DNA of 12,229 bases from a virus (Duplodnaviria; Heunggongvirae; Uroviricota; Caudoviricetes): IMG/VR virus record IMGVR_UViG_2609459834_000004; one strand, given 5' to 3'. How positions within the stretch are numbered: position 1 is the stretch's first letter; the number at the start of each line of letters is the position of its first letter. The position numbers and the translations under genes are program-made. The notes beneath the pieces were generated by a model. The model had not been told where the DNA came from, did no database searches, and saw only the letters and a program-made list of their open reading frames with translations. This document shows, one piece after another, positions 7,631 through 8,154 of this stretch.

Positions 7631-8154
7631 ATGTACTCCAATGAAGAAACCAGCGAAATAGCTGCCTTCATTCGTAGTAAACCTTTTTCATCAACGCAGT
7701 AATGGATTCTTTGAAGAGTCGCGATCAATACAACTCACTAATGGAGAGACTTGTCTCACGCATGAGACAAATTTCCCGTTTGATTTAATGGACACTATAG
7801 AGGGACAGAATGCCTTCCTCACTCGAATCACATCAATTAAGGAGGTTCAACATGTTTCATTCCACAAGTCATCAGGCTGTAATTATGGCAGCATCAGTTT
7901 GTGCCAAAGACCTTTTCCGCTTCACTTTGAGCCTGATTCATTTCTACCTGACCGGCTCGCCTCTATCTTTTTAATCCCCGCTTTATCCAAATTGCATTGC
8001 CATAATGCCGACAACACACTGACATTCAAATCCAGACTACCTCCAATAGTCTGACCGTACACCTATATAGTTTTAATTTTCATCAATCCATTTAACTATC
8101 GTTTAATTGTTGTCACATAGGATTCTGCTGTTTTTAACAATACAGGATAATAAG

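What the first reader, a model, noticed from the sequence alone, without database searches (positions are those of the whole stretch)
7744..7772. Cluster of overlapping GAGAC/GTCTC palindromes upstream of the HNH gene
GAGAC-TT-GTCTC-ACGCA-TGAGAC contains three copies of one pentamer in alternating orientation. This allows two mutually exclusive hairpins in RNA, or a tandem protein-binding site in DNA. It sits ~115 bp upstream of the HNH start, between the lysis and packaging modules. Possible roles are an attenuator-like switch or RNA processing site in the late transcript, or an operator.
Basis: seen in the sequence. Interest (0 to 1): 0.35.

Follow-up and report, generated by a model that had tools for sequence, protein, structure and literature searches.

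The report
T7/SP6-type promoter cassette in prophage
The palindrome is the leader hairpin of a tiny gene inside a dormant E. coli virus whose promoters look readable only by the RNA polymerases of unrelated T7-like and SP6-like killer phages, so it is probably a tripwire that switches on when such a phage attacks.

Summary
The three GAGAC/GTCTC pentamers are at the stated coordinates, but such a triple is not rare by chance. Only copies 2 and 3 form a conserved structure. They are the arms of a palindrome (7751-7770) that keeps pairing through double compensatory changes in 17 variants. Copy 1 is GAGGC in most relatives, and the proposed alternative hairpin is not conserved.

The hairpin pairs better on the + strand, antisense to the late operon. 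It starts at +1 of a 23-nt match to T7-group (Berlinvirus) promoters (7726-7748). That match scores 29.0 bits, against 22-36 for genuine Yepe2 promoters and 6.6 for the next-best site in the window. Downstream lie an SP6/K1-5-type promoter (7783-7805), a strong Shine-Dalgarno and a 40-codon ORF (7852-7974).

The commonest E. coli variant of the second promoter matches a K1-5 promoter at 23/23. SfIV carries the SP6 class and Klebsiella relatives a Berlinvirus or K11 class. SfIV encodes no such polymerase, and none was seen in the window. About 10% of complete E. coli genomes carry the cassette.

Best reading: a unit that is silent until a superinfecting T7/SP6-like phage supplies its polymerase, probably anti-phage. 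That function is inferred, not shown. I found no precedent.

The parts
7726..7748 (+). P1: T7-group (Berlinvirus-type) single-subunit RNAP promoter-like site, CAATACAACTCACTAATGGAGAG; predicted +1 = G7743
   Evidence: A PWM built from 13 annotated Yepe2 promoters scores it 29.0 bits. Genuine promoters score 22.1-36.5 leave-one-out, and the next-best site in the window scores 6.6. It matches the T7 core at 15/18, and 1 of 200 shuffles of the window gives such a match. The SfIV homologue is 27/28 identical to the Berlinvirus PhiV-1 phi17 promoter. It is the least variable block of the region: pi 0.003 against 0.07-0.12 in the flanks.
7743..7777 (+). 5' leader stem-loop of the P1 transcript. Inner perfect stem 7751-7758/7763-7770, loop 7759-7762, outer stem 7746-7750/7771-7775 plus G7743-G7744 with C7776-C7777. 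It contains all three pentamers of the finding.
   Evidence: The fold is -15.6 kcal/mol (z = -3.45) and nucleotide +1 is paired. For 13 pairs over 17 variants, 94.6% of cells are paired, 3 pairs carry double changes (15 cells), and 0 of 500 shuffles reach this. G.U pairs and a U-A > U.G > C-G series fit the + strand.
7746..7750 (+). First GAGAC pentamer = positions +4 to +8 of the P1 initially transcribed sequence GGAGAGAC
   Evidence: Yepe2 phi9 and phi10 transcripts start GGGAGAGAC. The pentamer is GAGGC in most relatives.
7783..7805 (+). P2: SP6/K1-5-type promoter-like site, ATTTAATGGACACTATAGAGGGA; predicted +1 = G7800. The T-rich run TTGATTTA just before and overlapping it is shared with SP6-like phage promoters.
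   Evidence: A PWM from 9 K1-5 sites scores it 28.3 bits (K1-5 sites leave-one-out 24.9-36.2; next-best in the window 7.9). The commonest E. coli variant is 23/23 identical to the K1-5 site at 12580 and hits Vectrevirus genomes at 6-9 places each. The SfIV variant matches the SP6 consensus at 20/21 and a UAB_Phi78 promoter at 31/32.
7800..7820 (+). Short 5' stem-loop of the P2 transcript (GAGGGA...UCCUC)
   Evidence: Predicted in the window, 203740 and SfIV, with nucleotide +1 paired. This is prediction only; its energy is weak (-5 to -6 kcal/mol).
7839..7846 (+). Shine-Dalgarno AAGGAGGT, 5 nt before the ATG at 7852
   Evidence: Read. The SD-ATG block has pi 0.010.
7852..7974 (+). 40-codon ORF, MFHSTSHQAVIMAASVCAKDLFRFTLSLIHFYLTGSPLSF. 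Its last 17 codons and stop codon overlap the LysC/Rz1 remnant on the other strand.
   Evidence: It is 40 codons in 99 of 100 copies; the remaining copy is cut by a contig end. A Klebsiella 38-aa counterpart sits at the same map position. No Pfam, PHROG, NCBIfam or PADLOC family matches.
7922..8062 (-). Remnant (C-terminal part) of an SfIV/P2-type o-spanin LysC/Rz1; homology to SfIV ends near 8041
   Evidence: PGAP calls it a pseudogene in the identical SCU-118 sequence. It matches PHROG 3001 and Pfam LysC. SfIV context.
8155..8448 (+). bor/iss lipoprotein gene, the next gene downstream on the same strand as the cassette in this lineage
7280..7630 (-). HNH endonuclease, first gene of the packaging module. 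It is transcribed away from the cassette.

Best explanation
The palindrome is the 5' leader stem-loop of a + strand transcript that starts at a T7-group (Berlinvirus-type) promoter. That promoter is the first of two tandem promoters for single-subunit phage RNA polymerases; the second is of the SP6/K1-5 type. Together they drive a strongly ribosome-bound 40-codon ORF. The ORF lies between the lysis and packaging modules of a Q-dependent lambdoid/HK97-like prophage and is antisense to its late operon.

SfIV encodes no such polymerase and none was seen in the window, and no sigma-70 promoter was found. The unit should therefore be silent in a lysogen and be transcribed only when a superinfecting T7-like or SP6/K1-5-like phage supplies its polymerase. 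The hairpin would stabilise the 5' end of that transcript, as in T7-group late mRNAs.

The likely purpose is prophage-encoded interference with the invader through the small hydrophobic peptide (abortive infection or exclusion).

Shown: the sequence identity of the promoters, the hairpin covariation and its strand bias, conservation, distribution, and the ORF being intact. Inferred: that the promoters fire with the foreign polymerases, what the hairpin does, and any anti-phage effect.
For: 1. Promoter identity. P1 scores 29.0 bits on a PWM of 13 annotated Yepe2 promoters (genuine 22.1-36.5; window background at most 6.6). The homologues score 32.7 in SfIV, 29.8 in Klebsiella L258 and 24.2 in O157. 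P2 scores 28.3 bits on a K1-5 PWM, and the commonest E. coli variant scores 36.7, being 23/23 identical to a K1-5 site. Short BLAST queries of P1 and P2 hit hundreds of Autographiviridae genomes at several places each, the pattern expected of their own promoters.

2. Class switching. The variable positions of the promoters match natural polymerase-specificity classes. The K1-5/K1E class is in E. coli and the SP6 class in SfIV. The Berlinvirus phiOR-like class is in Klebsiella L258. The K11/Przondovirus class is in L266, where 135 of 144 hits are Klebsiella phages.

3. Uniqueness. Both sites are unique in the 39.8-kb SfIV genome, lie about 60 bp apart on the anti-late strand, and SfIV has no RNAP gene.

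4. Hairpin. Covariation is given. The + strand pairs better than the - strand. Of 13 Yepe2 promoter transcripts, 8 start with a hairpin that pairs +1, 6 of them at -8 kcal/mol or stronger.

5. Constraint. P1 has pi 0.003 and SD-ATG 0.010, against 0.07-0.12 in neighbouring non-coding sequence. The ORF is intact in 99 of 100 copies. A duplicated copy that lacks the ORF has a decayed SD and a hairpin with mismatches.

6. Spread. The region is in 632 of 5426 complete E. coli genomes, and the perfect K1-5-type P2 is in 520. A Klebsiella counterpart sits in the same position next to several different lysis and terminase modules.

7. No sigma-70 promoter and no Rfam family were found.
Against: There is no expression or phenotype data; promoter activity is inferred from sequence alone.

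The first 24 codons of the ORF show pN/pS of 0.8-2, so there is no purifying selection on the N-terminal half. The invariant C-terminal 16 residues coincide with the overlap with the LysC 3' end, so their conservation may be inherited from LysC.

The E. coli peptide is only moderately hydrophobic (best 15-residue window 1.29, against 2.22 for the Klebsiella peptide). It matches no defence family.

In the window itself one outer pair is C x A on the + strand but G.U on the - strand. In L266 the second hairpin has decayed while the promoter persists, so the hairpin is not indispensable.

The two E. coli stem alleles also occur as two tandem hairpins in Klebsiella. Part of the apparent compensatory change may therefore be allele exchange rather than stepwise mutation.

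The K1-5 PWM sites were picked by motif and are not experimentally mapped.
Confidence: 0.6

Rival explanations
1. The hairpin acts in the late (minus strand) mRNA as a stabiliser, RNase processing site or attenuator between the lysis genes and HNH/terminase.
For: The inner 8-9 bp palindrome folds on the minus strand too (-16.5 kcal/mol, z = -2.6). It lies in a 291-nt intergenic stretch of the late operon. In the window variant, one + strand mismatch is a G.U on the minus strand.
Against: Only 82.8% of cells pair on the minus strand, against 94.6% on the plus strand, and the plus fold is more stable in 15 of 17 variants. No T-run follows it on the minus strand. The alternative hairpin needed for a switch is not conserved. 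This reading does not explain the flanking polymerase-promoter matches.
Confidence: 0.1
2. The DNA palindrome TTGTC-N10-GACAA is an operator for a dimeric DNA-binding protein.
For: It is a near-perfect 20-bp palindrome. The 18-nt core TGTCCAACACGTTGGACA is identical in E. coli and Klebsiella cassettes although the flanks differ. It fits TGT-N12-ACA, the dyad I recall for P2 Ogr sites (own knowledge).
Against: The three inner base pairs of each half-site change together while the loop is asymmetric (CGCA, CACG). TGT-N12-ACA is broken in SfIV (ACG) and in the GGCAA variants. The outer stem keeps pairing through G.U, which only matters in RNA. No candidate binding protein is linked to it.
Confidence: 0.07
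3. The promoter-like blocks and the hairpin are non-functional debris from past recombination with T7-like and SP6-like phages, carried along with the HNH-terminase module.
For: The region is a mosaic junction that holds a LysC remnant. The N-terminal half of the ORF evolves neutrally. There is no functional data.
Against: P1 and SD-ATG are far less variable than the flanks. Promoters of two different Autographiviridae subfamilies sit in tandem. Four promoter classes each match a natural phage group. The stem covaries. The ORF-less duplicate decays. The cassette is kept in degraded prophages such as SCU-118.
Confidence: 0.1
4. The hairpin plus the following T-rich run is a plus-strand terminator. 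P1 would then make only a roughly 45-nt RNA, or the site would insulate P2 from upstream antisense transcription.
For: The stem is followed by (C)UGUUUGAUUUA. In the commonest variants 5 of the 8 bases after the stem are T (read).
Against: The simple terminator scan does not call it in the window. The T-rich run TTGATTTA is shared with SP6-like phage promoters (TTGATTTAGG is shared with SP6 and UAB_Phi78), so it is explained as part of P2. T7-type polymerases need a U-run directly after a GC-rich stem (own knowledge).
Confidence: 0.08

Closest known systems
T7-group (Studiervirinae, Berlinvirus) phage promoters with their 5' leader stem-loops, e.g. Yepe2 phi9/phi10 and PhiV-1 phi17
   Same: The 23-nt promoter sequence. 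The initially transcribed GGGAGAGAC. A hairpin that pairs nucleotide +1 with a downstream UCUCCC-like segment. A strong Shine-Dalgarno and ATG 50-110 nt downstream.
   Different: It sits in a temperate lambdoid/HK97-like prophage; SfIV encodes no such polymerase and none was seen in the window. It is antisense to that phage's own late operon. The stem is lengthened by an inner 8-bp palindrome.
SP6 (Zindervirus) and K1-5/K1E (Vectrevirus) promoters
   Same: 23/23 identity with a K1-5 site in the commonest E. coli variant. 20/21 identity with the SP6 consensus and 31/32 with a UAB_Phi78 promoter in SfIV, including the upstream TTG and downstream GGACAG.
   Different: It lies in tandem with a promoter of a different phage subfamily, and inside a prophage.
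Satellite P4 late promoters (Psid, PLL) switched on by the helper P2 Ogr protein, and SaPI/PICI activation by helper phage proteins (own knowledge)
   Same: One mobile element carries control sequences that respond to the transcription machinery of another phage.
   Different: Those elements exploit a helper to spread, and they use activators or anti-repressors of the host polymerase. Here the promoters would be read directly by a foreign polymerase of unrelated virulent phages, and the payload is a 40-codon ORF.
Engineered phage-triggered suicide cassettes in Lactococcus: a phage-inducible promoter fused to a lethal gene (Djordjevic et al. 1997, own knowledge). The phrase 'triggered suicide' also occurs in the dairy-phage review PMC3530524 listed, which I did not read.
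   Same: The logic: a lethal or inhibitory gene that is silent until the invader supplies the transcription factor.
   Different: That system is man-made. I found no natural counterpart.
Lambdoid 'moron' genes between Rz and the packaging genes, such as bor/iss
   Same: The same map position and the same opposite orientation to the late genes. In this window bor follows on the same strand.
   Different: bor is expressed from the lysogen by the host polymerase (own knowledge). This unit has no recognisable host promoter.

Membership tests
T7-group (Berlinvirus-type) RNAP promoter | Match to the 23-nt consensus (-17 to +6) within the range of genuine promoters | tested here: met
   29.0 bits against 22.1-36.5 for 13 annotated Yepe2 promoters. 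The next-best site in the window scores 6.6.
T7-group (Berlinvirus-type) RNAP promoter | Cognate single-subunit RNAP encoded in the same genome | tested here: not met
   None of the 54 annotated SfIV genes is an RNAP. None was seen among the annotated genes of the window, which has Q, lysis and HK97-type packaging genes. It therefore works like such a promoter only if the polymerase comes in trans.
T7-group (Berlinvirus-type) RNAP promoter | Transcription starts at +1 with the cognate polymerase | not testable with these tools
   Needs in vitro transcription or 5'-end mapping.
T7-group late-mRNA 5' leader stem-loop | Hairpin that includes nucleotide +1 and is formed by the initially transcribed sequence with a downstream complement | tested here: met
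   Window, 203740 and SfIV P1 transcripts pair from nucleotide 1. So do 8 of 13 Yepe2 transcripts. Covariation.
SP6/K1-5-type RNAP promoter | Match to the 23-nt consensus within the range of the phage's own sites | tested here: met
   Window 28.3 bits and commonest E. coli variant 36.7, against 24.9-36.2 for K1-5 sites. SfIV matches SP6 at 20/21. The K1-5 sites were chosen by motif, not mapped.
Attenuator with mutually exclusive hairpins | Both alternative helices conserved or covarying | tested here: not met
   Helix 2 covaries. Helix 1 has no covariation and loses two of its four pairs in 7 of 17 variants.
Intrinsic (rho-independent) terminator | GC-rich stem directly followed by a T-run | tested here: inconclusive
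   The scan does not call it in the window. The commonest variants just reach 5 T in 8. The T-run is shared with SP6-type promoters.
Known RNA families (Rfam 15) | Covariance-model match | tested here: not met
   No match at E <= 1 anywhere in the window.
Known anti-phage defence proteins (PADLOC 2.0) and other protein families | Profile match of the payload | tested here: not met
   No PADLOC, Pfam, NCBIfam or PHROG family at meaningful E-values for the E. coli, SfIV or Klebsiella peptides.
Type I toxin-antitoxin | Small hydrophobic toxin plus an antisense RNA antitoxin, both made by the host polymerase | tested here: inconclusive
   The peptide is small and partly hydrophobic. No host promoter was found for it or for an antisense RNA. 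No toxicity data.

The most novel reading that the evidence does not exclude
Lambdoid and P2/SfIV-type prophages of E. coli, Shigella and Klebsiella carry a natural 'polymerase tripwire'. This is a gene with no host promoter, wired to promoter mimics for the RNA polymerases of the virulent Autographiviridae that prey on the same host. The invader's own transcription machinery would then express a small membrane-active peptide that aborts or excludes the infection. The promoter classes turn over (Berlinvirus, K1-5, SP6, K11) to track the local phages. This would be a way of sensing infection that is not among described defence systems.
Probability: 0.4. Interest if true: 0.9.

Novelty: new variant of a known kind. 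Interest (0 to 1): 0.75.

Why it matters
If the promoters fire, this is a natural case of one virus's genes being wired to the private RNA polymerase of unrelated competing viruses. That is a sensing principle known so far only from engineered suicide cassettes.

It would explain part of the variable success of T7-like and K1-5-like phages on clinical E. coli and Klebsiella. About 10% of complete E. coli genomes carry a perfect K1-5-type promoter here, which matters for phage therapy.

It would also add a very compact, orthogonal, infection-triggered switch to the toolbox. And it warns that strains carrying this cassette may express an unannotated peptide when T7 or SP6 polymerase is introduced.

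Independently of function, it shows that short unannotated intergenic blocks in prophages can be read by comparing them with the promoters of other phages.

Tried and rejected
- Rfam scan of the whole window at E <= 1: nothing.
- Sigma-70 promoter and terminator scan of 7500-8300: no promoter, and no terminator at the hairpin.
- Scan of genome contigs with the 15-nt pattern GGACAGAATGCCTTC: too short for 596 Gb. The same pattern in viral contigs gave about 90 useful loci.
- P2 Ogr-type dyad TGT-N12-ACA and a LexA box: considered from memory. Rejected because the dyad is broken in SfIV and in the GGCAA variants, and CTGT-N8-ACAG is absent.
- Minus-strand 46-codon ORF 7691-7831, which spans the hairpin: it is open in relatives. 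It has a GTG start and no Shine-Dalgarno, the compensatory stem changes cause radical residue changes, and no annotator calls it. It was not tested formally.
- The longer + ORF from ATG 7810 (54 aa): it is open in the window and L184. By my reading it is stopped after 6 codons (TAA) in most other variants, including SfIV and 203740.
- The svsR prophage sRNA (PMC12803456): it lies at cI and is unrelated.
- Eight full-text searches, including the promoter sequences as strings, found no description of T7/SP6-type promoters in temperate phages. The library lacks most subscription journals, including the original SP6/K1-5 and SfIV genome papers.
- Structure prediction of the 40-aa peptide: not run, because it would not be decisive.

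Full report
**Setting.** The window is a Q-dependent lambdoid prophage of E. coli with HK97-type packaging. All late genes are on the minus strand:
- Q: 11510-11908
- holin: 9435-9650
- endolysin: 8938-9435
- Rz: 8480-8953
- HNH: 7280-7630
- TerS: 6660-7163
- TerL: 4930-6663
- portal: 3556-4782
- major head protein: 1721-2950

Two genes lie on the plus strand: a porin (10163-11320) and bor/iss (8155-8448). An identical copy of 7600-8160 is in E. coli SCU-118, where PGAP marks 7922-8050 as a truncated Rz1/LysC pseudogene. The stretch 7600-8041 is 88% identical to the Rz1-to-HNH interval at the right end of Shigella phage SfIV. So the finding lies in a 291-nt spacer that belonged to an SfIV/P2-type lysis cassette and now sits next to a lambda-type cassette with bor.

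**The observation.** Taken alone they are not remarkable. GAGAC is under-represented in the window, and 42% of Markov-simulated windows contain some alternating pentamer triple within 23 bp. What stands out is the perfect palindrome TTGTCTCA-CGCA-TGAGACAA (7751-7770), which is unique in the window. It extends to an imperfect 13-15 bp stem at 7743-7777.

**Comparative test of the hairpins.** The spacer occurs in 632 of 5426 complete E. coli genomes at 81-100% identity. I collected 102 copies from annotated genomes and IMG/VR contigs. They give 17 distinct versions of 7722-7808.
- The long hairpin is paired in 94.6% of cells.
- Two adjacent pairs switch together: U-A/C-G becomes C-G/A-U, that is GTCTCA...TGAGAC against GTCCAA...TTGGAC.
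- A third pair runs U-A, U.G, C-G.
- No shuffle out of 500 reaches the observed covariation, and sliding the partners destroys pairing.
Its feasible 4-bp form shows no covariation and loses two of its four pairs in 7 of 17 variants, because copy 1 is GAGGC in most relatives.

So there is one conserved hairpin, not a switch.

**Which strand.** Counting G.U as a pair, 94.6% of cells pair on the plus strand against 82.8% on the minus strand. The plus-strand fold is the more stable in 15 of 17 variants. The outer stem varies between G.U, G-C and A-U, which is neutral only in plus-strand RNA. One exception is in the window itself: C x A on plus equals G.U on minus. The plus strand is antisense to the late operon, which argues against a role in the late transcript.

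**What flanks the hairpin.** The most conserved blocks of the spacer lie on either side of it.

*P1, upstream.* Immediately upstream is CAATACAACTCACTAATGGAGAG (7726-7748).
- In SfIV this reads CAATACGACTCACTAATGGGGAG, which contains 14/14 of T7 -16 to -3 (consensus from my own knowledge). It is 27/28 identical to the phi17 promoter region of Berlinvirus PhiV-1.
- A 36-nt query hits 316 T7-like phage genomes at 1233 places.
- With a weight matrix from the 13 promoters annotated in Yersinia phage Yepe2, genuine promoters score 22.1-36.5 bits leave-one-out. The window site scores 29.0, with the next-best window site at 6.6. SfIV scores 32.7, Klebsiella L258 29.8 and O157 24.2.

*P2, downstream.* Forty bases further on lies ATTTAATGGACACTATAGAGGGA (7783-7805).
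- The SfIV version is 20/21 identical to the SP6 promoter and 31/32 identical to a promoter region of the SP6-like phage UAB_Phi78. The identity includes the upstream TTG and the downstream GGACAG.
- The commonest E. coli version, ATTTACTGGACACTATAGAAGGA, is identical at 23/23 to a K1-5 site. It hits Vectrevirus genomes (K1-5, K1E and relatives) at 6-9 places each.
- The window version scores 28.3 bits, within the K1-5 range of 24.9-36.2; the next-best window site scores 7.9.
- The perfect K1-5-type version is present in 520 of 5426 complete E. coli genomes.

Both sites are unique in the SfIV genome, which has no RNA polymerase gene.

**The hairpin in that light.** P1 predicts a start at G7743, and the stem begins there (G7743-G7744 pair with C7776-C7777). 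The 5' arm GGAGAGAC is the T7-group initially transcribed sequence; Yepe2 phi9 and phi10 transcripts start GGGAGAGAC. So the first 'GAGAC' is part of the promoter unit. Of 13 Yepe2 promoter transcripts, 8 begin with a hairpin that pairs nucleotide +1 with a downstream UCUCCC-like segment, and 6 of these are at -8 kcal/mol or stronger. The P1 and P2 transcripts of the prophage do the same. The T-rich run after the hairpin is shared with SP6-like phage promoters (TTGATTTAGG). It is therefore better explained as part of P2 than as a terminator tail.

**The payload.** A strong Shine-Dalgarno (AAGGAGGT, 7839-7846) is followed after 5 nt by ATG 7852 and a 40-codon ORF ending at 7974.
- The ORF is 40 codons in 99 of 100 copies; the remaining one is cut by a contig end.
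- It has no Pfam, PHROG, NCBIfam or PADLOC match.
- Its homologues are only unnamed E. coli peptides and a 38-aa Klebsiella peptide found in 563 blocks of the collection index.

**Klebsiella relatives.** Klebsiella prophages carry that ORF at the same map position, on the strand opposite to the late genes, and next to several different lysis and terminase modules. Upstream of it are two elements. One is a Berlinvirus phiOR-like promoter (TATTAAGACTCACTATTGGGAAG; 29.8 bits; 25/27 to annotated phiOR promoters). It is followed directly by the palindrome CTTGTCCAACACGTTGGACA, whose 18-nt core is identical to the commonest E. coli allele. The other is a second palindrome with the window's arms, TTGTCTC...GAGACAA. 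A further variant (L266) has AATTAGGGCCCACTATAGAGACC instead, the K11/Przondovirus class; 135 of its 144 phage hits are Klebsiella phages. The cassette thus carries four promoter classes, each matching a natural group of virulent phages.

**Constraint.** Among 31 distinct bor-type sequences, P1 has pi 0.003 and SD-ATG 0.010. The neighbouring non-coding sequence has 0.07-0.12, and the hairpin interior 0.12, where the variation is compensated. Some loci carry a tandem second copy of the region that ends before the ORF. In it the Shine-Dalgarno is mutated (ACGGAGC, with ATG changed to ACG) and the stem carries mismatches, as expected if the elements are kept only together with the ORF.

**Caveats.**
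- Nothing here shows transcription.
- The first 24 codons of the ORF evolve with pN/pS of 0.8-2.
- The invariant C-terminal 16 residues are exactly the part that overlaps the 3' end of LysC on the other strand. LysC is intact in SfIV-type phages and is a remnant in the window and in Klebsiella. So conservation of the peptide sequence itself is unproven, and the payload could be the act of translation or the RNA.
- The E. coli peptide is moderately hydrophobic and the Klebsiella one clearly so.
- The two E. coli stem alleles also exist as neighbouring hairpins in Klebsiella, so recombination between alleles may account for some 'compensatory' changes.
- In L266 the promoter persists with a decayed hairpin.

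**Interpretation.** The best-supported reading is a plus-strand transcription unit built like a T7-group late gene: promoter, 5' hairpin, Shine-Dalgarno, ORF. It has two tandem promoters for two subfamilies of Autographiviridae, and it lies in prophages in which I found no gene for such a polymerase (SfIV has none). It should be off in a lysogen and be switched on by the polymerase of a superinfecting T7-like or SP6/K1-5-like phage. Interference with that phage is the most plausible purpose, but this is inference. I put about 0.75 on the structural reading and about 0.4 on the defence function. The rivals are weaker for the reasons given under each: a late-mRNA element, an operator, recombination debris, or a terminator.

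**Comparison and novelty.** The parts are ordinary members of known kinds by sequence (T7-group and SP6-group promoters, leader hairpins). They fail one defining feature of such promoters, a cognate polymerase in the same genome. The nearest concepts are satellite promoters that respond to a helper phage, and engineered phage-triggered suicide cassettes. Eight full-text searches found no natural case of prophage genes under promoters of foreign single-subunit polymerases. The library is incomplete, so I file this as a new variant of a known kind, with a 0.4 chance that it is a new sensing principle in phage defence.

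Noticed in passing
L184:10343-10925 (also L168, L174, L181, L226, L242): Tandem duplication of [HNH 5' fragment + spacer]. The second copy covers spacer positions 1-222 only (through P1, hairpin, P2 and SD) and lacks the ORF. Its SD and ATG are mutated and its stem has mismatches.
   Followed up: partly
L258:2780-3003 and L260:2780-3003 (Klebsiella prophages): The cassette is an array: a palindrome TTGTCTC-TTATAA-GAGACAA preceded by ...ATGAATGGA (possibly a decayed promoter unit), then a Berlinvirus-type promoter with a second palindrome, then a weak SP6-like site (CAATAGTGGCGAGTATAGAACGA, 14.1 bits). This suggests turnover of promoter-hairpin units.
   Followed up: partly
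L266:2325-2347: A cassette variant with a K11/Przondovirus-class promoter (AATTAGGGCCCACTATAGAGACC) and a decayed second hairpin. The host species of this Logan contig was not identified.
   Followed up: partly
window 7810-7974: In the window and in L184 an upstream in-frame ATG (7810) extends the ORF to 54 codons. In most other variants, by my reading of the alignment, the same ATG opens a 6-codon mini-ORF ending in TAA.
   Followed up: partly
window 7200-7262: A GC-rich inverted repeat (GGGGCGGGC...GCCCGCCCC) lies between the HNH stop and the TerS start. This is where HK97-type phages have cos (own knowledge).
   Followed up: no
L001 (E. coli SCU-118), locus 1674-2531: A prophage identical to the window across the cassette has a truncated HNH fused to portal and tail-assembly fragments. 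The cassette and bor/iss survive in a degraded prophage.
   Followed up: no
L005:1194-1388 (E. coli 2012C-4221): An extra 64-aa hypothetical gene on the late strand sits between the cassette and HNH. Homology to the window spacer starts only at spacer position 35.
   Followed up: no
L263 (SfIV) 22705-22727 +: A second, much weaker T7-group PWM hit (18.2 bits, TGATAAGAGTGACTATTGGAGGA) lies inside gtrA. It is below the range of genuine promoters and is probably chance.
   Followed up: no
window 10163-11320: A porin gene (PHROG 410; annotated 'porin' in SCU-118) lies on the plus strand between Q and the holin, as in DLP12 (own knowledge).
   Followed up: no
L257:3510-3887 and L259:3510-3887: In some Klebsiella prophages a 125-aa gene of unknown function (PHROG 12178) follows the small ORF on the same strand, in the place that bor/iss occupies in the window.
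   Followed up: partly
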